IMG/VR virus record: IMGVR_UViG_3300037067_015585
Span: 128,001-192,000 of that record
Source: a virus
Lineage: Duplodnaviria > Caudoviricetes
Reading direction: 5' to 3' (one strand)
DNA length: 64,000 nucleotides
Made by a program: the position numbers and the translations under genes. The notes beneath the pieces were generated by a model, which saw only the letters and a program-made list of their open reading frames with translations, searched no databases and was not told the origin of the DNA. Below, one piece after another: positions 29,551-58,366 of this stretch (position 1 is its first letter; each line of letters opens with the position of its first letter).

Positions 29551-30179
29551 TGATATATAGCTTTGCTGGTTGTGTTATGGAAGGGGCTAGATTTTTACAG
29601 CCTTTTCTACCGGGCAGCGAAACCAGTACACGAGGGATGTCAACTGAAGGTGTACTACGGCTATTAAATGGAGAAACGCTATCAATTGATGAAGATCAAT
29701 TGCAACAAATACTGAACAATAATCCAAATTCGCCAAAAGGGACGTATTTTGGAATTACTAAAATTACTGGTATTATTTGGACACCAGTGTCAGATGCAAT
29801 ATATCTAACACCACTAGCACGATGTCAAGACAAAACGACATATCCTTTTCATGATGGTGCATTAAATAGTATACTAGGCACAACTGGTGCAAGTTTGTCT
29901 TTTGCGGCTATAAAAGCACTATGGGCACAATTGTATAAAGAGACAACCAAAATAAGCAGACGCGCAGTTGTGTATTATCCGACAGATCATTTACATAGTG
30001 GTGCCTGGAAAGAACGAATTGAAAGATTGCAACGATTAGCAAGGGATCTATTCAATGATTGGCAATATTATACAGTAAGACCAGAGTTAGCTGAACCTAA
30101 TGGTTATTGGGCACATTATTCGCAATCAGCCAGAGAAGAGCTATGGGAACAAATTGGCGAAGGATTTAAGATAAACTAA
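29538..30179 (+). CDS. Hypothetical protein
   Basis: ORF coupled to the FkbM gene. Confidence 0.55.
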   Translation: MEEMMIYSFAGCVMEGARFLQPFLPGSETSTRGMSTEGVLRLLNGETLSIDEDQLQQILNNNPNSPKGTYFGITKITGIIWTPVSDAIYLTPLARCQDKTTYPFHDGALNSILGTTGASLSFAAIKALWAQLYKETTKISRRAVVYYPTDHLHSGAWKERIERLQRLARDLFNDWQYYTVRPELAEPNGYWAHYSQSAREELWEQIGEGFKIN

Positions 30180-31543
30180 CCACGCCAATCTTCTTCTGGT
30201 TCATCTTCTTCTGGCCTATATTCATCAGGTTCATATTCACCAATATCAAATTCTTCTGGTTCAACCATTAAATCATTTAATAGTTGTTTGGCGTTTTCTG
30301 GATCATCAACAACCGCAGCGATAATCTTCTGTAAATCGTCTGGTGGCTGCTTTGAGAGGGCTACATAGAGATCTGATAGAGACAATTCACGCGGCTTGAT
30401 TTTCAAGAATCTACGCCACATCTCTGGGCCGACCTGCATTAAATATGGCTCGTGCTTGATATCATCAGCATGTTTTAGAACTGTCTTAGTAGTCGGCTCA
30501 TCAAGATCTGCTAATCCGTGATGGCTAAGTAATTCAGCAACACCTTTATTCATTTCTTGTGCTAATACTGGGAAAACAATACCGCGAGCTTGAACAGTGG
30601 GTTCACCGCCTTCCTCTTCAGGATATTCGACCTTTGCAGAGCCCACAGCCATAGCACCCAAATTCGCAAACATCGCTGGAATATCAATCAACCAATACAT
30701 TCCATGCGACCCAGAAGATATCTGATCATACAATCTGAGCAATCGTGGATCTATTGCCTCTATTTCTTTATCAATAGCATGATGCATAGATAGCATAGCG
30801 TGAATTGCCGATCCATGAGTCATAGCGTTCAAAGTCAAGCGCTTGTTGATATGCTTACGAGTCATATCGTCAATTTCTTCCTGGCCTTCTTCTTCAGCAC
30901 CAAGATCCTCGTCGGCCTCATTCTCTTCAACGTCGCCAGTCAGACGACCATTCAACATCTCCTCTGGAATATGCCAAATCTTACATGTAATTGTCTTGGC
31001 TAGTTCTACCAATTCATCTTCATGTGTCGCTTCGATACGCATGATTTGCTGAACAACGCGCATCATATTCCCCATATTTGCGCCAGAAGCCTTAGAACGC
31101 TGATCAGTGTGTTCCCACGATTTGCGTGACAAGTCATCGCCAGACATAGCGAAAATTGGATGTTTTCCTAATGTATGCTCGCGATTTTGACGCAAGCCAC
31201 GCCAAAAATCTTGGGTACCAGGCTCTACTTCATCCTCGTAGGCTTCCGTCATAAGTTGTGCAAGTAGATTTGGTGCAGTATAGTTTTTAGGCTGTGGTAA
31301 TTGCTTTGGCCTAGGAGGATTCCAGGGTTTGTGCTCTGGGGGCTGCTTGGGCTTTGGTATTGTGCCTGGTTTAACAGGCGTAGTAGTCTGATTTTTAGGC
31401 TGTGGTAATTGCTTTGGCCTAGGAGGATTCCAGGGTTTGTGCTCTGGGGGCTGCTTGGGCCTTACTGGGGTCTTGACAGGGGGTGCAACTGGCGATGCAG
31501 TACCTTCTAAGATCTTCGATAGTGTTTTGTCGAAATATACCAT
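30176..31543 (-). CDS. Phage hypothetical (putative virion) protein with Pro-rich duplicated N-terminus and acidic tail
   Basis: 455-aa ORF; MVYFDKTLSKILEG N-terminus. Confidence 0.7.
   Translation of the reverse strand: MVYFDKTLSKILEGTASPVAPPVKTPVRPKQPPEHKPWNPPRPKQLPQPKNQTTTPVKPGTIPKPKQPPEHKPWNPPRPKQLPQPKNYTAPNLLAQLMTEAYEDEVEPGTQDFWRGLRQNREHTLGKHPIFAMSGDDLSRKSWEHTDQRSKASGANMGNMMRVVQQIMRIEATHEDELVELAKTITCKIWHIPEEMLNGRLTGDVEENEADEDLGAEEEGQEEIDDMTRKHINKRLTLNAMTHGSAIHAMLSMHHAIDKEIEAIDPRLLRLYDQISSGSHGMYWLIDIPAMFANLGAMAVGSAKVEYPEEEGGEPTVQARGIVFPVLAQEMNKGVAELLSHHGLADLDEPTTKTVLKHADDIKHEPYLMQVGPEMWRRFLKIKPRELSLSDLYVALSKQPPDDLQKIIAAVVDDPENAKQLLNDLMVEPEEFDIGEYEPDEYRPEEDEPEEDWRG
31284..31460. repeat. 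Exact 69-bp intragenic direct repeat (31284..31352, 31392..31460)
   Basis: Encodes PKQPPEHKPWNPPRPKQLPQPKN twice. Confidence 0.92.
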
Positions 31544-31591
31544 GGATGTTCCTAGCTAGAGACAAATTTCCCATAAAAAGATTTGCACATA

Positions 31592-33466
31592 ATGCTACTC
31601 AGCAATTTGTACTTATTAGAAGCACTTGATCCTGTCGCTAACGCTTTCGCGAAATTTGGTAAGAATGCTGTAAACATTGCCAAGAAGGTACATGACAATC
31701 ACCCCAATCTAGATTACGAAGAGCTTGCTAAGCAGTTATTGCAACAGGCTATAGAGACTGATCCAGACCCAAAGAAGAAGAGCGTAGGATGGATATTGAA
31801 GCAAGTTGGAAATAAAGCAATCATTCTACCAGACGACGCACATGCAATAAACGAGCTGTTGAGGCGGTTTGTCGAACAGAAGAGAGTTGGTCGATTGCCA
31901 GAACCAGATCTTAATAAACATACGGTCGATAGCGCGAGAGATATGCTTGATCAGCTTGGTGATGTCGAGAGCAAACGACAAGGCGGTTTGGGCTTCGATC
32001 CATCTAAAAAGCCTGGTGTTAAAGTTTATGCGAGTAGTGGTCCTTATGTCATCTTGCGGTCTACCAATGCAGAATCGCTCGCCGAAATAGGAGAAGGTAG
32101 TATTTGGTGTACGCGTAAAAGTTATGGTAGTGGTTCGATGGCACCATCATATCTTAATAGATTCGGTGCTATCTACACCATTTTCAAAGATGGTAAGCAA
32201 CTTGCACAATATACTCCAAACTATGCAGAGGTTCAAGGAGCTAAAACGACATCTCGATTTGCGCCAACAAAAGAATTGGCTAAACTAATGGCTCCAGATC
32301 CCGACATATTATCAGGCAAGATTCAAGGTACAGGTCTAAATCTAGTTGATGTTCGTACAAATTATTCTGCGTTGACGGGAATAACAGATCCCGAAACCGA
32401 AAAATTATTGCTAAAAGAGCTGAAAGCAGCAAAGCCAGATGGGCGTATAGATTCAGCACGAGGGTCGATTTCAGTTAGCATCTATCATTGTACCAATTAT
32501 ATATCAAAGTTCGGCGATGATATACCATTTATCAAAGAGTTTATAGATACAGTACGATCAACCCATCCGCGTGCAATTGGCCAGATGGTTACGTCATTAG
32601 TTACCCATATTGCAGGTCGAGAGAAAATTCCGGATGCATTAATAGATATTATTGCAGAAACACACGATAATAAAGCTGCCATAATGCTAGCAAAGAGTTC
32701 GAAGAAGCGTTACCCGCAATTTGAGCAGGATTGGTTATTAGACGATCTCGATAACGCTATAAGCTATACCGCCGCGACAGCATTAGTTATTCCGGGGCTA
32801 TTAAATAGAATAATTAAAGAAGGTACCATAGGCCAAATGTTGGCCTATGGTATACCGCTATATAAAGCACGCAAACTAGATGTTGATGCATTAGATAAGG
32901 TGTTGTCTACTAAAATCAATAATCAAGACGACGCTAATCTGGTGAGCAAGTTTGCGAGTGAGATAGGAATGACGCCACACATCGCAAAGCGTATAATGAC
33001 TAGTCAAAACCCTGGTTTTATTATAGTTTATTGTGGTGCTATTGGTAAAGCGTTACCAGGAGCAGATGAAGACATTCTTCGGTTTGGAGAAGCAGCAGAT
33101 GTTTGGAAGTGGATGCAATTTGTAAAAAAATATAACTGGCCCGAAGCAGAGGCAATACTAGCACATGATGCGCGATATGCCAATAAGTTTGTGCGAGCCA
33201 CTGGTCGAAAACCAAGGAACAAAGGAGATGAAAGAGATGTAAAGCCAAAGACACCAAAAGAAGCTTTGCATTTCGCATTGGCAACCGGCGATGAATATCC
33301 AGATGGTGAAAGCCTTATACTTCAAGATTTGGATGTCGCTATAGATTACGCAGAACACATAATTGGACCATGGGCAGAATTAGAACAGAAATTACGAGAA
33401 GAAGGCACACCAGAGCAAAAAGCAAACTACCTACATAAAGTGCTGTATGATATAGAACCAGATTAG
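31592..33466 (+). CDS. Large phage hypothetical protein with helical repeats (putative virion protein)
   Basis: MLLSNLYLLEA start, DPDP...WI, GSIWCT; repeated WPEAE-like units. Confidence 0.65.
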   Translation: MLLSNLYLLEALDPVANAFAKFGKNAVNIAKKVHDNHPNLDYEELAKQLLQQAIETDPDPKKKSVGWILKQVGNKAIILPDDAHAINELLRRFVEQKRVGRLPEPDLNKHTVDSARDMLDQLGDVESKRQGGLGFDPSKKPGVKVYASSGPYVILRSTNAESLAEIGEGSIWCTRKSYGSGSMAPSYLNRFGAIYTIFKDGKQLAQYTPNYAEVQGAKTTSRFAPTKELAKLMAPDPDILSGKIQGTGLNLVDVRTNYSALTGITDPETEKLLLKELKAAKPDGRIDSARGSISVSIYHCTNYISKFGDDIPFIKEFIDTVRSTHPRAIGQMVTSLVTHIAGREKIPDALIDIIAETHDNKAAIMLAKSSKKRYPQFEQDWLLDDLDNAISYTAATALVIPGLLNRIIKEGTIGQMLAYGIPLYKARKLDVDALDKVLSTKINNQDDANLVSKFASEIGMTPHIAKRIMTSQNPGFIIVYCGAIGKALPGADEDILRFGEAADVWKWMQFVKKYNWPEAEAILAHDARYANKFVRATGRKPRNKGDERDVKPKTPKEALHFALATGDEYPDGESLILQDLDVAIDYAEHIIGPWAELEQKLREEGTPEQKANYLHKVLYDIEPD

Positions 33467-33470
33467 ACTA

Positions 33471-33920
33471 TCAAATCTCACGTATAGACTCAATATTTTC
33501 TGGTCTTATTGTTATTATTTTTCTGAATAACGGATAGGTCACTAGATTGCGGTGTAGATCATAATAATACGATGGGCTCTCGCACGGCTGATTCATACAT
33601 TCGACATAATGTCTGTTGCAATTTTCGCATATTCCTTCTAGATCAACGCCAGTTGCCGGATCTTGATGTGATGTTGGTACATAGCGAGGTGGACCATAGA
33701 AATCTCGCAACTTCTTAACAATACCAGCCGGATTATTATTTTTGTGTACTTTCTCATATCGCCCAGGCCCTATACCGACTACTACGACAGTTTTCCCAGT
33801 TTTGGTCTTCACCGTCCTTATATGGTCAGCCTCTATGACTGTACCACGTTTCATAGTTATAATTGATCTCTTCGAAATGCGCGTTTCCAATATTGCGGAT
33901 AGTCGATCGTTGAACTTCAT
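33471..33920 (-). CDS. RT-locus small protein A (paralog of 34106..34489, with Cys-rich insertion)
   Basis: Shared ADH, GxxPG, RDFYxPxR, F(R/Q)KIITIxxEN. Confidence 0.8.
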   Translation of the reverse strand: MKFNDRLSAILETRISKRSIITMKRGTVIEADHIRTVKTKTGKTVVVVGIGPGRYEKVHKNNNPAGIVKKLRDFYGPPRYVPTSHQDPATGVDLEGICENCNRHYVECMNQPCESPSYYYDLHRNLVTYPLFRKIITIRPENIESIREI

Positions 33921-33927
33921 AATAAAA

Positions 33928-34081
33928 AAGACTGTCGTAAATTTGGCAGTGCAAAACTAGGACTACGGCTAAAACCGTCAGGTTTTAGATGACATGTGCT
34001 TCTGCACCATTGAACACCTCCCCAAGGCGTGACACGGACATCAATAGCTTCGAAGCGTCAGGGAAAATTTACGACAGTCTT
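33928..34081 (-). ncRNA. RT-associated structured element, copy 1 (154 nt)
   Basis: Perfect 17-bp terminal inverted repeat 33928..33944/34065..34081; core shared with copy 2; U-tract after the stem on the minus strand. Confidence 0.75.
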
Positions 34082-34105
34082 GTCTCCTTGTTTTTGTGAA
34101 TAAAT

Positions 34106-34489
34106 TTAGAGCCACTTAAACGCTCGAACATTCTCTTTGTGAATGGTGATAATCTTCTGAAATTTTGGTCTAATTATTGGCAACGTTTTGGCATTATACA
34201 TACCATTTTTATCTGGCTCATCCCACCCATCTTTACCAAACTGGGTATGGCGCGTAGGTGCATAGAAATCACGCATTTCAAGCATAGGACCACGAGCACT
34301 TCTACCGGAGCGAACATATTCAGTTCCACCAGGTCTCAAACCAATAGCCAAATAAATGCTCCCGTTTTCTCTTTTTATCCACCGAGCATGATCTGCTCTA
34401 ATTTCAACACCACGCGCAGTCATTACCAACGCCGGACGCATTCTATTAGTATTTTCAAAAATAGCAGATAGTTGCTGATCGAAATTCAT
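34106..34489 (-). CDS. RT-locus small protein B (paralog of 33471..33920)
   Basis: As for protein A. Confidence 0.8.
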   Translation of the reverse strand: MNFDQQLSAIFENTNRMRPALVMTARGVEIRADHARWIKRENGSIYLAIGLRPGGTEYVRSGRSARGPMLEMRDFYAPTRHTQFGKDGWDEPDKNGMYNAKTLPIIRPKFQKIITIHKENVRAFKWL

Positions 34490-34526
34490 GTTGGTAGTCG
34501 CAGTATTGTAGATAACTTATGAAAAA

Positions 34527-34676
34527 GGGCATTACAAGTTTGGCAGTTCGAAAACTAGTATTACGGCATGAATCGTTAGATCCATACTGGCATGAATCTC
34601 TATACCATCAACGGCCTCCCCAAGGCGTGGCACGGTGTCGATAGCTTCGAGACAACGGGGAAAACTCATAACACCC
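34527..34676 (-). ncRNA. RT-associated structured element, copy 2 (150 nt)
   Basis: 15-bp terminal stem 34527..34541/34662..34676 whose four mismatches are all G-U on the minus strand; covarying inner stems; U-tract. Confidence 0.75.
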
Positions 34677-34691
34677 AAAATAATTTTTCCA

Positions 34692-36062
34692 ATGATTACT
34701 ATTAACGATTGTTTCAAGCAACTACCGTTTGACCGTGCGGCCATTTTTGTCATGTCTAAGGTGGCTTTCGACAAGAATAGAGGATTCACAAAATCATTAG
34801 ATGGTGAAACTTTTTGGCAGTTCGCACGCAAGTTAGACCGTACATTAGATTCCTTAAATCGTGATATTGTCTCTAATAATTATGTGTTCAATCCCTACAG
34901 AGAATATATACGTGTTCGCTCTGGCAAAGAACGCAAAATCTATATCTCAACGTGGTCCGACAAGATTGTAGAACGCTGGTTGGCGACGGCCATTGGCCAA
35001 TCACTGAGCAAATGGTTCTCAACAAGTTCTTATGCCTACAGAGCAGGTGCCCTTGGTGTTGATCAATGTCAATCCAAGGTAGCAAAAACAGTCAAACAAT
35101 GTAAGTTCTTTGCAAAGCGTGATATTACACAATTTTTCTATAATATTAATCACGATATTCTACTAGAGCAGCTACAAAGATTATTCGACAAGAATATGTT
35201 ACGACTATTAGAACAGCGCGTTAAATTCAATTATGGTACAGACTTAAATAATATTAAATGTGCTGATCTAGGGGTTCCTTTTGGTAGTCCATTAGCGTGC
35301 GTCTTAGCCAACATCCATCTGACAGATTTAGATAAGGATATGTGTCTACCAGGTATTCATTATTTTCGATATGCAGACGACTTTCTTGTAGCTGGCGATG
35401 ACCCAGAAGTAGTCTTACAAGCAGCAGTTCGTATGGACTCGGAAATAGAGAGACTCGGGCTAACGTTCAAAGCGTCTCACACTCAGAACTTCTCGTTTAT
35501 ACCGTATGATGGATTTGATACCGTCAAGCGATTCAAGTTCTTGGGATTAGAGTTTTCAGATAAAGCAGTTAAGCTGCCAATAGAGAAACAACGTAAAATT
35601 ATCAATTTCTTTAAACGTGGTTTAAAATCTGATAAATATAGCATTAGAAATGCAAAAGACAAGGTTGCTGAATCAGTTGCATCCACTAATCGAGTCGTTT
35701 CGAAACGTATCCGTTCTGTAGCAATCATCGATTACTATCTAAAACATACAACCGACGAGCAGCAATTGAAGAATATGGACAGAATAATTGCAGAACTTGT
35801 AGTCTCTGCTGCTCTAGATAAAAAATTTCGGAAGAGCGATTTTAGAAAAGTACCATACGAACGACTTAGACAGCTTGGTTTAGTGTTATTGGTACACCGG
35901 CATAAGTTACATGCACACAAACATATCAAAATACCATTCTTATCATTATATGACAGCCTATTATTGGAACGCATGGAATTACTAGCCATCAGAAACCGAG
36001 ATCGCATTAATAAGATCAAATTATCTCGAAAACTCCAAAAAATTGAGCGTGATAAGAAATGA
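34692..36062 (+). CDS. Stand-alone group II intron-like reverse transcriptase
   Basis: RT0-like SLDGETF, KERKIYI..W.DKIV, SYAYR, RDITQFFYNINH, GVPFGSP...LANIHL, YADD (35370..35381), FKFLG, maturase-X-like thumb; ATG 34692 preferred over GTG 34635, which lies inside the element. Confidence 0.92.
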   Translation: MITINDCFKQLPFDRAAIFVMSKVAFDKNRGFTKSLDGETFWQFARKLDRTLDSLNRDIVSNNYVFNPYREYIRVRSGKERKIYISTWSDKIVERWLATAIGQSLSKWFSTSSYAYRAGALGVDQCQSKVAKTVKQCKFFAKRDITQFFYNINHDILLEQLQRLFDKNMLRLLEQRVKFNYGTDLNNIKCADLGVPFGSPLACVLANIHLTDLDKDMCLPGIHYFRYADDFLVAGDDPEVVLQAAVRMDSEIERLGLTFKASHTQNFSFIPYDGFDTVKRFKFLGLEFSDKAVKLPIEKQRKIINFFKRGLKSDKYSIRNAKDKVAESVASTNRVVSKRIRSVAIIDYYLKHTTDEQQLKNMDRIIAELVVSAALDKKFRKSDFRKVPYERLRQLGLVLLVHRHKLHAHKHIKIPFLSLYDSLLLERMELLAIRNRDRINKIKLSRKLQKIERDKK

Positions 36063-36063
36063 T

Positions 36064-36858
36064 ATGAATAAGCAGATATCAATAATCATACCAATTGGGA
36101 GACAATTTAGCGGCCTACCAATGCCAGAACGTGAAAAATCGTTCATATTCTCTATAGAGAATTTTTATAAAAAACATGTAAATTCTGAGATCATAGTTGT
36201 AGCACAAGACTACCAACTACCAGCAATTGATGGTATTAAGATAATCAAAATAAGCAGCCCAATATTTAATAAGGGCTGGTGTATCAATGTTGGAGTAAAA
36301 GCAGCGAAAAATGAATATGTTTATATATGTGAATCTGAAATGTATTCATCTGAACCATATCTAAATAATGTTAGCGACTTTATGTTCGAAAAGAATCTCA
36401 AATGGTGCTTCGCTTGGAATACATTATGTTATACTTCAGAACAGCAGCGAAACCAAATAATGCAAAATATGCCATGCATTAGAGAATATAATAGAGAACC
36501 ACATATAATGAAAACAGAAGGTGGAATAGTAGCGTTTGATAAAGACTTTTTCTTAAATATTGGTGGTTTTAATGAATGGTTCGAATTACTTGGGGGAATC
36601 GACAATGAAATCGCATATCGAGCATTTATGAGATCTGGTACATACCAAAGGTACAAACACGCCATAGATCATTTATGGCATCCTAGAAGTGAGAGTAAGA
36701 ATGTGAAACCATATTTTACTAAAAATGTAAAATTATGTAGTTTCACGATTAGATATGTAAAAGAAGTAAATGCATTTCTAGCAAAACAAGATTTTGGTAA
36801 TCCTATGCATCCATTATGCATAACAAAAACGTTTGAAGAGGCGTGGGGAAATGCGTAG
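36064..36858 (+). CDS. GT2/GT7-like glycosyltransferase
   Basis: ISIIIP, FNKGWCINVG, IGGFNEWF..LGGID, HLWHP. Confidence 0.8.
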   Translation: MNKQISIIIPIGRQFSGLPMPEREKSFIFSIENFYKKHVNSEIIVVAQDYQLPAIDGIKIIKISSPIFNKGWCINVGVKAAKNEYVYICESEMYSSEPYLNNVSDFMFEKNLKWCFAWNTLCYTSEQQRNQIMQNMPCIREYNREPHIMKTEGGIVAFDKDFFLNIGGFNEWFELLGGIDNEIAYRAFMRSGTYQRYKHAIDHLWHPRSESKNVKPYFTKNVKLCSFTIRYVKEVNAFLAKQDFGNPMHPLCITKTFEEAWGNA

Positions 36859-37099
36859 TATATTGCCACAAAACGAAGAAAAAGCAATAAAAGCAGCTTG
36901 GTCTATTGTTGTTTGGATCGATGGTTGTTTAAATAGTGGATGTAAATGTGACTGTAATAAGCCACTTGACGAAGCTAAGCTTGTGCTGGCGACCTTAGAG
37001 CAATATAAATCCGAACTACATGATTGTGATATAAAAATCGCAGAATTAGGAATTGAGAACGAGAAACTAAAAAAGATTAAGAAGATACTCGACGGCTAA
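36851..37099 (+). CDS. Small hypothetical coiled-coil protein
   Basis: ORF coupled to the upstream gene. Confidence 0.5.
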   Translation: MRSILPQNEEKAIKAAWSIVVWIDGCLNSGCKCDCNKPLDEAKLVLATLEQYKSELHDCDIKIAELGIENEKLKKIKKILDG

Positions 37100-37142
37100 C
37101 AAGTTCGTATTTGAGATGTGAATTCTCCAATATAGGACTACC

Positions 37143-39329
37143 ATGATTGATCTTGAATCTGTTGACGTAGAAGGCTTCGTAAGCTGGGGACCATATAACA
37201 CAACGCTTAAGTTGTCGGGGATGGAACAATGCTTCATTTTAGGTAATGTATCTGATTCAACAAGCGTGGCATATGGGAAATCTAACGGTGCCGGAAAAAG
37301 CTCTCTGATGCAAGCCGTCTTGTGGTGCTTGTCTGGTAAAACGGTATATAACCAAAATCCGGGGGATAAAGTATTAAATTGGTTCTCTGGTGGCAATGCA
37401 AGAGTAAAGCTAAGATTAAAAAATGGCGATGAGCTTACTAGAGTCAGAACACGACAGGGTGATACAGAGCTGTTGTTTAGACGTGGTACTCAAGAAATTA
37501 TCAATTGCACTCTATCGACAACAGGCAATCAACAGCGATTATTAGACAAAGAATTGAAATTCGATTACGGACTATTTTGCGGATCTGTATTCTTTTCTCA
37601 ATATCGACAACCATGGCTTGCAATGCAAGACCAGACAAGGCGACAAGCTTTTGAACGTATAATGGGTATTGATAGATTGTCTATTTATGCCGAGGTCGCA
37701 AAAGCTAGGTATGATAAGGTCATACAAGAGCAAGAAAAACGTAAAGTCAAGGTAGACAGTTTAAACACAAGCATACAGAATTTAACACAACAGCTTGAAT
37801 TAACGCAAAAGTCTTCAATATTATTTGAAAATAGCCGCTCGAGCCGTCACATAGCTAAATTACAATATATCTCTGAATGTGAAGAAAAAATAAGCAAGTT
37901 TATTCAGATAGATATTAAAGCCTTAGCCCAAAAATGGGCGATTGTTACGAAGATAAACGCTAAGATAAGTGAAATAGAGTCTCAAATTTCAGAGGCAGAT
38001 ACGAATATATCGAACGCCGAAAACGCAAGATTAAAAGCAATAATGCATCTGAGGGAGGATGCACAAACAGACCGCAACAAAATATCGAAATCAATAATCG
38101 CAGAACAAAACATCGTTACAAAGACCGGTAATGACGCCGTTAAGACGAAAGAGAGTGAGGTAGAAGCCTATAATAAAAAGATTTTAGCGTTGCGTGGCCA
38201 GATATCAGATCAAAATAGCATTGTCAGTAATCAAAATAATATCATCAAGAAATGGCAATCTAAGTCTGGAAAGATATGTTTAGAATGTGAGCGTGAATTG
38301 CCTGTCGAATACGCTAATAGCAAAATTGATGGACCAAGAAAAACAAAAGAAGACGCCGAAAAAGAAGTCGCTCGATTAAATAATATCGTTATATCATTAG
38401 AAGCAGAAATCAAGAAAATCATTAAACAAATTACTGAATTAAGATCAGGAACATCTGCATCTATTATTGAATTATCAGCAAAGTCAACAAATATGACTGC
38501 TGAAATCGACGCGCAGTTAGAATGTGCAATAGCGACAGCCAACGGAACTGCAAAAAGCATCAAAGATAAAAATCAAGATAAGAAAACACAATTGGAGAAT
38601 CTGGTCATAAGCACAAAAGACAAATTATCTAGTGTAAAACCTGATATGACTGTCAACGAAGCTAACTCTAAGAACGCACAACGTGACACTATTTATGATT
38701 CACTGCGTCGCGCTAAAGAAGATGCCAACAATATATTGATTGAGAAGAATACGCATACTGAATCAATTATCCAACTAGGACAAAGCATCAAAAAGCAAGA
38801 AGATCAAGTAAAAATTGAATCTAAAGACCTTACTACATATGATATTATTTTATCTCATTTGCAGTATATACAAAAAGCATATAGTGATCGAAGAAAAATT
38901 AAGAGCTACCTAATAAGCAAACATCAACCATATTTTAATTCAAGGCTTCATCATTATCTCGACCTATTCGATTTAGACATAAGAGTATCGTTGACCGATT
39001 CATTGGGCATAGACAGTAATCTATGGGGGTATGATTTCCAAAGCGGTGGAGAGCGTGGCAGAACAGACCTGGCATTTATGTTTGCCGTTTTTGACTTGCA
39101 TCAAGGGATTCACGGACCACAAAGCAATATTCTTGTTCTAGATGAACCAGAAAAAGCGTTAGATGAAGCTGGGCGTCAAATGTTAATAAGTGTGATCAAA
39201 GATGACCTAGCAACTAGGTTCGAATCAATCTTTATAATATCACATAGCGATTGTTTTCACGACGTTTTTCCACACCAAATCGCTGTCGAAAGAACTGACA
39301 GATTCTCACATATCACAGACGTCAGATAG
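37143..39329 (+). CDS. SbcC/Rad50/gp46-like ATPase
   Basis: NGAGKSS, FFSQ, coiled coil with CLEC hook, QSGGE, LVLDEP, IISH. Confidence 0.9.
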   Translation: MIDLESVDVEGFVSWGPYNTTLKLSGMEQCFILGNVSDSTSVAYGKSNGAGKSSLMQAVLWCLSGKTVYNQNPGDKVLNWFSGGNARVKLRLKNGDELTRVRTRQGDTELLFRRGTQEIINCTLSTTGNQQRLLDKELKFDYGLFCGSVFFSQYRQPWLAMQDQTRRQAFERIMGIDRLSIYAEVAKARYDKVIQEQEKRKVKVDSLNTSIQNLTQQLELTQKSSILFENSRSSRHIAKLQYISECEEKISKFIQIDIKALAQKWAIVTKINAKISEIESQISEADTNISNAENARLKAIMHLREDAQTDRNKISKSIIAEQNIVTKTGNDAVKTKESEVEAYNKKILALRGQISDQNSIVSNQNNIIKKWQSKSGKICLECERELPVEYANSKIDGPRKTKEDAEKEVARLNNIVISLEAEIKKIIKQITELRSGTSASIIELSAKSTNMTAEIDAQLECAIATANGTAKSIKDKNQDKKTQLENLVISTKDKLSSVKPDMTVNEANSKNAQRDTIYDSLRRAKEDANNILIEKNTHTESIIQLGQSIKKQEDQVKIESKDLTTYDIILSHLQYIQKAYSDRRKIKSYLISKHQPYFNSRLHHYLDLFDLDIRVSLTDSLGIDSNLWGYDFQSGGERGRTDLAFMFAVFDLHQGIHGPQSNILVLDEPEKALDEAGRQMLISVIKDDLATRFESIFIISHSDCFHDVFPHQIAVERTDRFSHITDVR

Positions 39330-39344
39330 CAGGAGCGTTTGAGC

Positions 39345-40523
39345 ATGGGTAACACAGAAGGCCAATCGGCAATTAAAGAAGCCGAGCCACCGAGTTCACA
39401 AAGTAAAACAGACGCTTTTAGAGAACATTACTTTCCAGATACAGATGATAGTGAGTGGAATAGCTGGCATTGGCAATTCTGCAACAGATATGTCACCAAA
39501 GACCAGATATCTGAAGTAATTCAGCTTAGTCAGGACGAGAAAAATGCAATGGATGCATTAAAAAAATCCGGCAGGGTGGCCATAAATATAACACCATATT
39601 ACCTAAGTCTGATATCTCAAACAGACATCAATCAGCCACTACGAAAAACAGTTATTCCAACGATGGCGGAGCTTGATGTTTCTGATAGCGAATATGAGGA
39701 CCCGTTAAACGAAGATGATGACAGCCCTGTACCTGGTATCGTTCACAGATATGACGATAGGGTATTAATGTTGGTATCGAATTCCTGTTCTAGTTATTGC
39801 AGGTATTGTACTCGTTCTAGAATGATTGGAACACCAAAAGCCTGTCCAACGATTACTCAGCATTATATAGATGGTGCTATCGATTACATAAAAAACACCA
39901 ATTGCGTTCGAGATGTTTTGCTGTCTGGTGGGGACCCATTATTGCTACCAGACAGCACATTAGATATCATATTGAAGAGATTACGCGATATACCTCACGT
40001 CGAAATCATCAGAATCGGCACTAAAGTGCCCGTAGTACTACCACAACGCATAACACAGTCATTATGTGATATGCTCGAAAAATATCATCCATTGTTGATG
40101 AGCATTCATTTTACACACCCTGACGAATTAACTAAAGAATGTGTATTGGCATGCTCAAAATTAGCTAAGGCTGGAATTCCACTTGGATCGCAAACAGTGT
40201 TATTATCTGGCGTCAATGACGACATAGAAACAATGAAGTCGCTGATGCACAAATTATTAATCGCAAGAGTTCGGCCATACTATTTATATCAATGCGATCC
40301 TGTTATTGGAACAAAGCACTTTCGGACACCAGTTTCGAAGGGAGTAGAAATTATTGCTGGCTTGCGTGGTCATACGACAGGATATGCTGTACCGACTTTT
40401 GTAATAGATGCTCCTGGTGGAGGAGGAAAAGTCCCATTGCAACAAAATTATGTAGTAGCAAGCGATGAAAGCCAAACAATATTGCGAAATTATGCTGGGC
40501 AAATTTATCACTACCCACGATAA
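39345..40523 (+). CDS. kamA: KamA-family radical SAM enzyme (lysine 2,3-aminomutase-like)
   Basis: HRY, CSSYCRYCTR, LSGGDPL, QTVLLSGVND, PYYLYQCD, DAPGGGGKVP. Confidence 0.85.
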   Translation: MGNTEGQSAIKEAEPPSSQSKTDAFREHYFPDTDDSEWNSWHWQFCNRYVTKDQISEVIQLSQDEKNAMDALKKSGRVAINITPYYLSLISQTDINQPLRKTVIPTMAELDVSDSEYEDPLNEDDDSPVPGIVHRYDDRVLMLVSNSCSSYCRYCTRSRMIGTPKACPTITQHYIDGAIDYIKNTNCVRDVLLSGGDPLLLPDSTLDIILKRLRDIPHVEIIRIGTKVPVVLPQRITQSLCDMLEKYHPLLMSIHFTHPDELTKECVLACSKLAKAGIPLGSQTVLLSGVNDDIETMKSLMHKLLIARVRPYYLYQCDPVIGTKHFRTPVSKGVEIIAGLRGHTTGYAVPTFVIDAPGGGGKVPLQQNYVVASDESQTILRNYAGQIYHYPR

Positions 40524-57464: not shown

Positions 57465-57629
57465 ATGAAAAAGCTATGGCGTATTTGGGCTAAGGCATTA
57501 GGCGAAAAAGCTGGCAAATCAGACTTTGAATCTGATGTTATTGCGACCGTACGATCGGTAATAGTAATAACTTACCTAATTACCAACCTAATTATAATGG
57601 CTGGTATTTTTCGTCACTGGAACGATTAA
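57465..57629 (+). CDS. 54-aa membrane protein of a type recalled from T4-like phages (not in the ORF track)
   Basis: MKKLWRIWAKALGEKAG...ITNLIIMAGIFRHWND. Confidence 0.7.
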   Translation: MKKLWRIWAKALGEKAGKSDFESDVIATVRSVIVITYLITNLIIMAGIFRHWND

Positions 57630-58366
57630 CGTCTGCTAGAGAGGTATTCAGAAATTTCTCTAGCCAATCGTTTCTGATATGTCTCAGCTGTGAACACGCC
57701 CTTTGGAATATTCTTCATTGTACGGTTCAATGGCTTCAGCCTGCCTTCACAAATGTGAAGAATTGCGCCGGTCACACTTGGCTCAGCGACTGCATCCCAT
57801 GTAACAAATCGATAACCTTCTGTTACATAATATGTCTCTTGACCGCCTTGGTCTCGAACATCCATATCACCAATACCACGTGAAGAAATACCGATAGTTC
57901 CGCGTTTGATTAGAGTCTTCAATTGATGGCCGAATGGAAGCTCATCAATGATTTCTGCTTCACCATAAACATTCTTGCCTTCCATCCATATCTTGGTTAG
58001 AAGGTGCGAGATTCTATCAAGGTGAATTTTGGCGTCTGCTGGGTGATCAAATTCACCCCAAACAGATCGACCAGCTAAATCCTCCTGGATAGCCTCAACT
58101 GCCTCTCTGACAACTGGCCGTGGGTAGATTCGGCCATTCGCATTCATATCATCGGCGACTTGGAAAATACCAGTGATTCGTGTTATTGGGGCTCCACCAA
58201 GAGCACCTTCACCAATGACCTGTTTAGTGTCAAGAATCTTAAGTGGCCAAACATCCTGTAGTAATTGCTGACCCTCTGGCATAAAACCAGTTTGTGCAAC
58301 AAGACCACGGTTAAAGCTCGTTCTCGGATTATATCGGCCAATTCTGTTTGCTCTTGTCACTAACAT
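57626..58366 (-). CDS. Prohead core protease (T4 gp21-like)
   Basis: NANGRIYP, GEFDHP, ISHL, GISSRGIG, WDAVAEPS. Confidence 0.88.
   Translation of the reverse strand: MLVTRANRIGRYNPRTSFNRGLVAQTGFMPEGQQLLQDVWPLKILDTKQVIGEGALGGAPITRITGIFQVADDMNANGRIYPRPVVREAVEAIQEDLAGRSVWGEFDHPADAKIHLDRISHLLTKIWMEGKNVYGEAEIIDELPFGHQLKTLIKRGTIGISSRGIGDMDVRDQGGQETYYVTEGYRFVTWDAVAEPSVTGAILHICEGRLKPLNRTMKNIPKGVFTAETYQKRLAREISEYLSSRR

What the first reader, a model, noticed from the sequence alone, without database searches (positions are those of the whole stretch)
33471..36062. Candidate new phage RT system: group II-like RT plus tandem [structured element + small protein] cassettes
Seen: an intact RT (YADD) whose ATG lies 15 nt from a 150-nt structured element. 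A second, diverged copy of that element sits ~600 nt away. Each copy lies directly 5' of one of two paralogous 127-149 aa minus-strand ORFs, giving <-ORF A, element 1, <-ORF B, element 2, RT->. Known: the RT has the RT0 extension and X-like thumb of group II intron RTs. It lacks retron NAxxH/VTG and DGR GNxxSQ signatures, and its stop is 1 nt from the next gene, leaving no room for intron domains V/VI. Inference: a domesticated RT acting on more than one cognate RNA, each linked to its own partner protein, in a large phage. I do not recognise this layout as retron, DGR, RT-Cas1 or a described DRT.
Basis: partly seen in the sequence, partly recalled or inferred. Interest (0 to 1): 0.95.

Follow-up and report, generated by a model that had tools for sequence, protein, structure and literature searches.

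The report
Phage reverse transcriptase with template RNAs
A giant uncultivated phage carries an unclassified reverse transcriptase that always travels with one to four copies of a 150-base structured RNA and, in its subclade, with small barrel-shaped proteins; the RNA looks like the template RNAs of telomerase-like bacterial defence enzymes, so this is probably a new phage-borne relative of those systems.

Summary
The parts are an intact YADD reverse transcriptase (34692-36062, +), two about 153-nt elements (33928-34081 and 34525-34678) and two paralogous small ORFs (33471-33920 and 34106-34489, -).

The elements are a real structured RNA read from the minus strand. In 19 homologues 90% of cells pair, and 41 of 50 pairs show compensatory changes.

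RT, RNA and small protein co-occur in 9 independent phage or metagenome loci. Copy numbers are uncoupled (1-4 RNAs, 1-3 proteins) and orientation varies. A weaker related RNA sits next to bacterial RT homologues too.

The RT belongs to no described family. It scores equally, at 110-145 bits, against group II intron, UG17 and UG26 models.

The RNA has two single-stranded loops, each followed by a hairpin, that carry a co-varying 5-mer UGyxA. The second loop reads xAUGyxA, an A-B-A' pattern like the DRT10 template.

My best reading (about 0.5) is a Class-2-DRT-like RT-RNA particle that makes tandem-repeat DNA. Its partners are new Sm/SH3-like proteins carrying a prohead-protease-type leader. No product was observed.

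It is a new variant of a known kind. The scan had noted this stretch only on overlapping windows of the same genome, not on other DNA.

The parts
34692..36062 (+). Reverse transcriptase, 456 aa, YADD at residue 227, PFG motif 4, long C-terminal helix (residues 416-455 in the model)
   Evidence: ORF. RVT_1 6.7e-25. Motifs. AF2 model pLDDT 92. Fold nearest GsI-IIC RT, DRT9 and G2L4.
34525..34678 (-). ncRNA copy 2 (next to the RT, divergent from it): closing stem P1, three-part stem P2, hairpins P3 and P4
   Evidence: CM hit of 141.5 bits. Fold z -3.3 on the minus strand against +0.6 on the plus strand. Covariation.
34588..34594 (-). Copy 2, loop between P2 and P3: CAUGCCA, the candidate A-B-A' template (A=CA, B=UGC)
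34628..34633 (-). Copy 2, unpaired loop in apical P2 ending in GUGCCA: a second copy of the 5-mer, 40 nt upstream
34106..34489 (-). Small protein B, 127 aa: leader MNFDQQLSAIFE, then a small beta-barrel core
   Evidence: AF2 pLDDT 88. Sm/Hfq-like matches at Z 6-7.
33928..34081 (-). ncRNA copy 1
   Evidence: CM hit of 166.1 bits. Fold z -3.9.
33990..33996 (-). Copy 1, loop between P2 and P3: CAUGUCA, the candidate A-B-A' template (A=CA, B=UGU)
34030..34035 (-). Copy 1, apical P2 loop ending in GUGUCA
33471..33920 (-). Small protein A, 149 aa: leader MKFNDRLSAILE, the same core, plus a Cys-rich insert

Best explanation
This is a three-part reverse-transcriptase module of the Class-2-DRT type, carried by lytic jumbo phages.

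Shown:
- The RT has an intact active site.
- A structured RNA of about 150 nt is read from the minus strand.
- RT, RNA and a family of small beta-barrel proteins travel together.

Inferred:
- The RT binds the RNA made from the opposite strand, possibly two RT molecules per RNA. It copies a short single-stranded loop that lies just 3' of the long P2 stem and 5' of hairpin P3.
- That loop reads xAUGyxA. After copying xAUGy, the new DNA end can slip back onto the second xA, so a 5-nt unit is added again and again, as in DRT10 and telomerase. The predicted products are (TGACA)n from copy 1 and (TGGCA)n from copy 2.
- The same 5-mer in a second loop 40 nt upstream may serve a second RT active site or product re-annealing.
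- The small proteins have an Sm/SH3-like fold of the kind that binds RNA or single-stranded DNA, and take the partner or effector role that SLATT has in DRT10.
- Their conserved hydrophobic-x-Glu leader, together with the phage's T4 gp21-type protease, suggests they are trimmed and packed into the head.
- The biological role is most likely in conflict: exclusion of rival phages, or counter-defence early in infection.
For: RNA structure and strand:
- 19 homologues, 90.4% of cells paired against about 40% when partners are slid, 41 of 50 pairs compensatory, and invariant G-U pairs that would be A-C on the other strand.

Association:
- The RNA lies beside the RT in window, L001, L002, L083, L007, L085, L090, L248 and L253, and beside more distant RTs in L005, L006, L084, L089, L093, L096 and L097.
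- Weak hits fall at one fixed place in 10 of 12 bacterial loci.
- The small protein family has only 68 representatives among 1.84 billion proteins. Every contig of this family that was examined and is long enough also holds the RT and the RNA.
- All loci with this partner fall in one supported RT subclade (97/89).

Template logic:
- xAUGyxA is found in 14 of 19 (shuffle P 0.0013).
- The 5-mer is repeated 40-43 nt upstream, exactly in 12 of 19 against 3.8 expected (0 of 20000 shuffles).
- Both sites are unpaired and each is followed by a hairpin.
- This matches the two published DRT10 rules, A-A' microhomology and a template loop framed by stem-loops, and the two-loop 2:1 design (PMC12632851; 10.64898/2026.06.29.735271).
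- The ncRNA ends 0-35 nt before the partner's start codon, as in DRT10 (10.64898/2026.04.29.721553).

RT:
- UG17 (DRT10) is the best specific PADLOC model (125 bits), and DRT9 is among the top fold matches.

Partner:
- Hfq/Lsm/WYL-type barrels at Z 6-7.
- The leader motif is present in 44 of 46 relatives and is internal in an 815-aa fusion.
- An S77 protease is found in this phage and in 4 of 5 related phage records, 3 of them above the family's cut-off.
Against: - No cDNA, RNA or expression data exist. Only DNA contigs were found.
- The RT is no closer to UG17 than to group II intron RTs or UG26, so shared mechanism is argued from the RNA, not from ancestry.
- A-A' here is only 2 nt, and one of the two positions is invariant, so the covariation rests on one column and is not corrected for phylogeny.
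- 5 of 19 RNAs break the pattern.
- No conserved Ser or Tyr was seen at the extreme C-terminus of the RT.
- The fold matches of the small protein are in the range that common small barrels reach by chance.
- L099 has the RT without a detectable RNA or small protein within 3.5 kb.
Confidence: 0.5

Rival explanations
1. The RT-RNA particle is the same, but the product is a concatemer of a 40-nt unit. The RT copies from the P2/P3 loop back to the apical P2 loop, then jumps between the two identical UGyxA 5-mers, a DRT2-like template jump.
For: An exact 5-mer direct repeat 40-43 nt apart in 12 of 19 RNAs, co-varying as UGUCA, UGCCA or UGUUA. DRT2 makes concatemers by jumping between short repeats (PMC11100668).
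Against: The RT would have to unwind all of P2 in each cycle, with no stable 5' boundary. In DRT10, repeat addition fails when B is 20 nt (PMC12632851). No conserved open frame exists in the 40-nt unit, so there is no Neo-like gene.
Confidence: 0.15
2. The element is mainly a cis-acting leader, a structured operator directly before a start codon. The RT or the small protein binds it to control translation, as group II intron RTs do at DIVa. It is not a template.
For: The 3' end of the element lies 0-35 nt from the next start codon (the small ORF, or the RT itself in L084, L006 and L089). No Shine-Dalgarno is visible and a U-run follows P1. The RT is group II intron-like.
Against: Tandem arrays of 2-4 copies with no ORF between them occur in L090, L007, L248, L253 and L097. 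The co-varying direct repeats have no role in an operator. The catalytic YADD is invariant across the family.
Confidence: 0.15
3. It is a retron-like element: the RNA is an msr-msd whose closing stem acts as the a1/a2 repeats, and the RT primes from a 2'-OH to make msDNA.
For: A long closing stem formed by the 5' and 3' ends, next to an RT with a small partner gene.
Against: No NAxxH or VTG motifs. The retron model scores 65 bits against a cut-off of 235. Retron RTs rank below group II and DRT9 in sequence and fold. The RNA is often on the other strand.
Confidence: 0.05
4. It is a decayed group II intron or a DGR.
For: The RT fold and sequence are nearest to group II intron RTs.
Against: No intron RNA domains in Rfam at E up to 10. 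The next gene starts 1 nt after the stop. TIGR04416 scores 145.6 bits against a cut-off of 300. No TR/VR repeat. The family is conserved as a free-standing gene in phages and many bacteria.
Confidence: 0.03

Closest known systems
DRT10 (UG17 RT + ncRNA + SLATT), Tang et al. 2025 PMC12632851; 10.64898/2026.04.29.721553; 10.64898/2026.06.29.735271
   Same: Three parts. A 137-143 nt ncRNA closed by its own ends and decorated with hairpins. The ncRNA lies a few bases before the partner gene. A short template loop is framed by stem-loops and has A-A' microhomology. There are two loops per RNA. UG17 is the best specific HMM for this RT.
   Different: The RT is not a clear UG17 member (125 bits, level with other models). 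The partner is a soluble small beta-barrel, not a SLATT membrane protein. The RNA is in 1-4 copies and often on the strand opposite to the RT. The module is carried by lytic jumbo phages, not defence islands or prophages. The product is unknown.
DRT9 (UG28 RT + ncRNA), PDB 9ioa/9nlv/9vma
   Same: It is among the best fold matches of the RT (TM 0.61-0.66) and the best UG hit by profile (E 2.7e-24). It is an RT-ncRNA particle with a template loop.
   Different: DRT9 has a conserved poly-U template and makes poly-dA, with no obligatory partner. Here the loop is xAUGyxA.
Group II intron RTs (GsI-IIC, PDB 6ar1) and domesticated G2L4
   Same: Nearest in sequence and fold. A free-standing domesticated form exists (G2L4).
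   Different: There is no intron RNA and no maturase context. G2L4 has no dedicated ncRNA and acts in DNA repair.
UG27 phage-encoded RT system (Mestre et al. 2022, PMC9226505)
   Same: An RT of the UG type found mostly in phage genomes together with two conserved partner proteins.
   Different: It is a different RT group (49 bits here), found in gut phages, with other partners and no such RNA described.
T4 internal proteins with the capsid targeting sequence, cut by the gp21 protease (my own knowledge)
   Same: A short N-terminal leader ending in Leu/Ile-x-Glu, shared by unrelated small proteins of one phage. The genes are variable and multi-copy. A gp21-type protease is present.
   Different: No sequence or fold relation was shown, and packaging was not tested.

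Membership tests
DRT10 / UG17 | RT falls in the UG17 clade | tested here: inconclusive
   The PADLOC UG17 model scores 125 bits, the generic RT model 145 and UG26 109. Relatives score 108-135 for UG17 and 91-131 for UG26. No tree with reference RTs could be built.
DRT10 / UG17 | SLATT membrane protein encoded beside the RT | tested here: not met
   Neither small ORF nor any neighbour has a Pfam or PADLOC hit. The partner model is an all-beta barrel.
DRT10 / UG17 | Structured ncRNA directly upstream of the partner gene | tested here: met
   The gaps to the start codons are 7 and 35 nt.
DRT10 / UG17 | Template loop with an A-B-A' pattern, framed by stem-loops | tested here: met
   xAUGyxA between P2 and P3 in 14 of 19 RNAs. 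A second loop carries the same 5-mer.
DRT10 / UG17 | Protein-primed tandem-repeat cDNA; C-terminal helix with a terminal Ser/Tyr | tested here: inconclusive
   A long C-terminal helix is present, but there is no conserved terminal Ser or Tyr. The product cannot be tested here.
Group II intron RT/maturase | Score above the TIGR04416 cut-off | tested here: not met
   145.6 bits against a cut-off of 300.
Group II intron RT/maturase | Intron RNA domains around the ORF | tested here: not met
   No intron family in Rfam at E up to 10 over 33000-36500. The next gene starts 1 nt after the stop.
Retron | Retron RT motifs and model score | tested here: not met
   No NAxxH or VTG. NF038233 scores 65 bits against a cut-off of 235.
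DGR | Template/variable repeat pair and GNxxSQ-type motif | tested here: not met
   No such repeat in 30000-37500. The motif is absent.
DRT2 / UG2 | Model score, and an endless ORF in the repeated cDNA unit | tested here: not met
   NF041746 scores 71 bits against a cut-off of 390. Stops occur in the 40-nt unit in most homologues.
Sm/Hfq-like small beta-barrel (small proteins) | Shared fold | tested here: inconclusive
   VIA-align gives Z 6-7, rmsd about 2.2 over about 50 residues, to many Hfq/Lsm chains. Foldseek is not significant. The Atlas nearest matches are ROF, WYL and SH3-like.
T4-type head-targeted, protease-trimmed proteins | Hydrophobic-x-Glu site in a leader, plus a gp21-type protease in the phage | tested here: met
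   The motif is in 44 of 46 relatives and is internal in the fusion P0145. PF03420 scores 73.6 bits in this genome and is found in 4 of 5 related phage records, 3 of them above the family's cut-off. Cleavage and packaging themselves cannot be tested here.

The most novel reading that the evidence does not exclude
Lytic jumbo phages run their own telomerase-like RT-RNA machine. Its RNA arrays encode several different short repeat DNAs. Its Sm-like partner proteins are trimmed by the head protease and packed into the capsid. As a result, a nucleic-acid-binding component of an RT system is injected with the genome and acts in the first minutes of the next infection, as counter-defence or exclusion. 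A sister clade in Acidobacteriota and other bacteria, with an RT, an RNA and a Zn-ribbon protein in conserved chromosomal positions, would be a further undescribed RT-RNA system.
Probability: 0.25. Interest if true: 0.9.

Novelty: new variant of a known kind. Interest (0 to 1): 0.78.

Why it matters
All characterised RT-ncRNA systems that make repeat DNA (DRT2, DRT3, DRT9, DRT10) are bacterial defences. A related machine in lytic phages of about 360 kb would show that phages use the same chemistry for their own ends. This one has a new RT clade, arrays of diverged template RNAs, and a new partner protein that looks head-targeted.

It also gives a clean prediction that can be tested in E. coli with two plasmids: 5-nt repeats set by a 7-nt loop, changeable by compensatory mutation.

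The RT family is compact (about 450 aa) and close to group II intron RTs. It may therefore help place the link between group II intron RTs, Class 2 UG RTs and telomerase, and may be useful as a programmable repeat-DNA synthesiser.

Tried and rejected
- Rfam: no family matches the elements.
- Pfam, PADLOC, PHROGs and NCBIfam: nothing for the small proteins.
- GenBank phages (50,697 records): no DNA match, no member of this RT family, and no small-protein homologue.
- Sequencing runs: no RNA holder is listed, only DNA contigs. Laying them showed no back-joints or repeat products. It showed only assembly breaks and extra depth over the conserved element, and a strain variant that skips 34075-34807.
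- Complex prediction of the RT with the small protein gave no verdict.
- Endless ORF in the 40-nt unit (a Neo-like gene): rejected, because stops occur in most homologues.
- Mini-ORF starting at the conserved AUG of the loop: its length runs from 1 to more than 13 codons and there is no ribosome-binding site, so I read the AUG as part of the template motif.
- Phage 'telomere' idea: there are no tandem arrays of the predicted 5-nt units and no extra copies of the 40-nt unit in the 234-kb record.
- Homology between the phage small proteins and the bacterial Zn-ribbon partners: hhalign probability 0.1%.
- Sigma-70 promoter and terminator scan: nothing above the shuffles, and the P1 stem plus U-run is not scored as a terminator.
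- A split ribosome-binding site brought together by P1: an AAGGAG lies 5' of copy 1 only, and not in copy 2 or L007, so I dropped the idea.
- A tree with reference RT classes could not be built, because no reference sequences were on hand.
Full report
**What is there**

The window is part of a 234-kb virus record judged 64% complete. Its closest relative, L001, lies in a complete record of 363,885 bp. The host of this module is therefore a jumbo phage of about 360 kb, known only from metagenomes: groundwater, and landfill relatives.

The RT ORF is intact.
- From the ATG at 34692 it gives 456 aa, with YADD at residue 227 and PFG where most RTs have PQG.
- It has none of the retron or DGR signature motifs.
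- Its stop is followed after one base by the start of a glycosyltransferase-like gene.
- No group II intron RNA is detectable.

Upstream on the other strand lie two paralogous small ORFs (E 8e-17). Each is preceded by a copy of an element of about 153 nt.

**The element is an RNA read from the minus strand**

- Both copies fold far better as minus-strand RNA.
- A covariance model built from six copies found the element next to RT homologues in many other contigs.
- On 19 copies, 90.4% of cells form pairs, against about 40% when partners are slid. 41 of 50 pairs show changes on both sides.
- Several pairs are invariant G-U, which would be A-C on the plus strand.
- The fold is a 17-bp closing stem (P1), a long three-part stem (P2a-c) and two hairpins (P3, P4).
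- The alignment was fitted to the model, which inflates these numbers somewhat. The independent RNAalifold run on six sequences gave the same structure.

**The three parts travel together, but not one-to-one**

The small-protein family is rare, with 68 representatives in 1.84 billion proteins. Every contig of this family that I examined and that is long enough also carries the RT and the RNA:

| Locus | RNAs | Small proteins | Note |
|---|---|---|---|
| window | 2 | 2 | |
| L001 | 2 | 2 | |
| L002 | 1 | 3 | |
| L083 | 1 | 2 | |
| L007 | 3 | 3 | two RNAs in tandem |
| L085 | 1 | 1 | |
| L090 | 4 | 2 | RNAs in tandem; proteins on the far side of the RT |
| L248 | 2 | 2 | RNAs in tandem, then two proteins |
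| L253 | 2 | 1 | RNAs in tandem; the domain is fused into an 815-aa protein |

More distant phage-clade RTs have the RNA on the RT's own strand, abutting its start (L084, L089, L006, L093), or three in tandem (L097). In a family tree, all loci with the small protein fall in one supported subclade (97/89) of a phage clade. That clade is separated at 100/99 from a bacterial clade.

The bacterial clade is mostly Acidobacteriota, with Planctomycetota, Elusimicrobiota and others. There, a Zn-ribbon protein follows the RT. Weak but position-consistent hits of the RNA model lie between the two genes in 10 of 12 loci. The RNA is therefore a family-wide companion of this RT, and the partner protein changes between clades. 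L099 is an exception, with no RNA or small protein found within 3.5 kb.

**What the RT is**

| Comparison | Result |
|---|---|
| Group II intron model TIGR04416 | 145.6 bits, cut-off 300 |
| PADLOC generic RT | 145 bits |
| PADLOC UG17 | 125 bits |
| PADLOC RT-Cas1 | 112 bits |
| PADLOC UG26 | 109 bits |
| PADLOC UG4 | 98 bits |
| PADLOC DRT9 | 93 bits |

- Relatives give the same flat picture.
- A family profile against PDB sequences ranks group II intron RTs and Cas6-RT-Cas1 first (E 1e-31). DRT9 follows (3e-24), then G2L4 (4e-21), DRT2 (2e-14) and the retrons.
- The AF2 model (pLDDT 92) matches GsI-IIC RT (TM 0.66-0.73), DRT9 (0.61-0.66) and G2L4.

I therefore file it as an unclassified, group II intron-like family that borders the Class 2 UG RTs. 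It is not a member of any named group. It may correspond to one of the poorly described 'G2L' classes (PMC8934634), which I could not test.

**Why I think it makes repeat DNA**

DRT10 (UG17) was shown in 2025-2026 to be an ncRNA + SLATT + RT system. The RT copies a short loop again and again, because the first bases of the template (A) recur just downstream (A'). The loop is framed by anchoring stem-loops, and one pseudo-symmetric RNA with two loops holds two RT molecules (PMC12632851; 10.64898/2026.06.29.735271; 10.64898/2026.10.08.757509). The same framing is reported for DRT2, DRT3 and DRT9.

In the phage RNA:
- The single-stranded stretch between P2 and P3 reads xAUGyxA. The two x positions agree in 14 of 19 copies: C/C nine times, A/A four times, U/U once (shuffle P 0.0013).
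- The 5-mer UGyxA recurs 40-43 nt upstream, exactly in 12 of 19 copies against 3.8 expected (0 of 20,000 shuffles).
- The upstream site sits at the end of an unpaired loop of 8-10 nt that is again followed by a hairpin, P2c.
- The two copies within one phage differ (UGUCA against UGCCA), and both sites change together.

Co-variation of direct repeats is not what base pairing produces. It is what re-annealing of a DNA end, or reading by two identical active sites, would select. An earlier first-stage note (e1-5525584) had pointed to the 40-nt repeats. I tested that here and added the 5-nt pattern.

The predicted product is a 5-nt tandem repeat. A 40-nt concatemer is the main alternative. Neither unit encodes a conserved open frame.

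None of this is direct evidence. No RNA runs hold the locus, and the DNA contigs show nothing.

**The small proteins**

- The model (pLDDT 88) is an N-terminal helix followed by a small beta-barrel with a variable insert. ORF A carries a Cys-rich insert there.
- An exhaustive structural search gives many Hfq/Lsm/Sm chains at Z 6-7 over about 50 residues. The Atlas search gives ROF, WYL and SH3-like barrels. Foldseek finds nothing significant.
- This is a common fold class that often binds RNA or ssDNA. The scores are in the grey zone.

A lead from another first-stage note (e1-5525586) held up under test.
- 44 of 46 family representatives have a hydrophobic-x-Glu motif just before the conserved core.
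- The motif is kept at the same place when the domain is internal in an 815-aa protein.
- The exact leader F(D/N)xxLSxI(L/F)E is shared in this genome only with an unrelated 455-aa Pro-rich protein 2 kb away.
- The phage encodes a T4 gp21-type protease (73.6 bits). So do 4 of 5 other RT-bearing phage records, 3 of them above the family's cut-off.
- From my own knowledge, T4 targets its internal proteins to the head with such a leader and cuts after Leu/Ile-x-Glu.

Packaging of the partner proteins is therefore plausible but untested.

**Rivals**

- A pure translational operator would explain why the RNA always abuts a start codon. It does not explain tandem arrays without ORFs, the direct-repeat covariation, or the invariant active site.
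- Retron, intron remnant and DGR each fail a defining test (see the membership table).

**Verdict**

The claim of one RNA per protein is not general. The system is best seen as a new, phage-borne variant of the Class 2 RT-ncRNA systems, not a wholly new kind. The mechanism is a prediction, at about 0.5.

Noticed in passing
window 30176-31543 (-): A 455-aa Pro-rich protein starts with MVYFDKTLSKILE, the same leader as the two small proteins, but is otherwise unrelated. It contains a 79-nt direct repeat (31277-31355 and 31385-31463, 95% identity). It may be another head-targeted protein.
   Followed up: partly
window 57626-58366 (-): A T4 gp21-type prohead protease (PF03420, 73.6 bits). This places the phage among those with T4-like head maturation.
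   Followed up: partly
L163-L242, e.g. L166:3450-5523: Bacterial sister clade of the RT (Acidobacteriota, Planctomycetota, Elusimicrobiota and others, about 35% identity). The RT is followed by a weak match to the same RNA model, then by a 130-200 aa protein with an N-terminal Zn-ribbon and a conserved C-terminal domain. Synteny is conserved in Acidobacteriota (LemA-like and TPM-like genes upstream). It has no Pfam hit and I found no description of it.
   Followed up: partly
window 36064-36858 (+): A glycosyltransferase-like gene (Glyco_transf_7C, E 2e-8) sits between the RT and the SbcC-like gene here. It is absent in L001 and L002, where the RT is followed directly by the SbcC-like gene.
   Followed up: partly
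window 34075-34807: One contig of the source-like groundwater run joins 34075 to 34807. This looks like a co-occurring strain with one RNA and no ORF B, as in L002. Word depth rises about five-fold over 33946-34036 because several related contigs share the conserved RNA core.
   Followed up: partly
window 34539-34559 and 34813-34833: A 21-nt stretch of RNA copy 2 (P4 region) recurs at 81% identity, with 12 nt exact, inside the RT coding region. It may be chance.
   Followed up: no
L006:2736-3846 (+): In this 125-kb phage record the RT and a same-strand RNA are preceded by two tandem paralogues of 186 and 187 aa. They match the small-protein profile only weakly (E 2e-4) and may be a third kind of partner.
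   Followed up: no
window 39339-40523 (+): A 394-aa ORF with a CxxxCxxC radical-SAM motif resembles lysine 2,3-aminomutase by eye. It follows the SbcC-like gene (37143-39329, PHROG 77). I did not test it.
   Followed up: no
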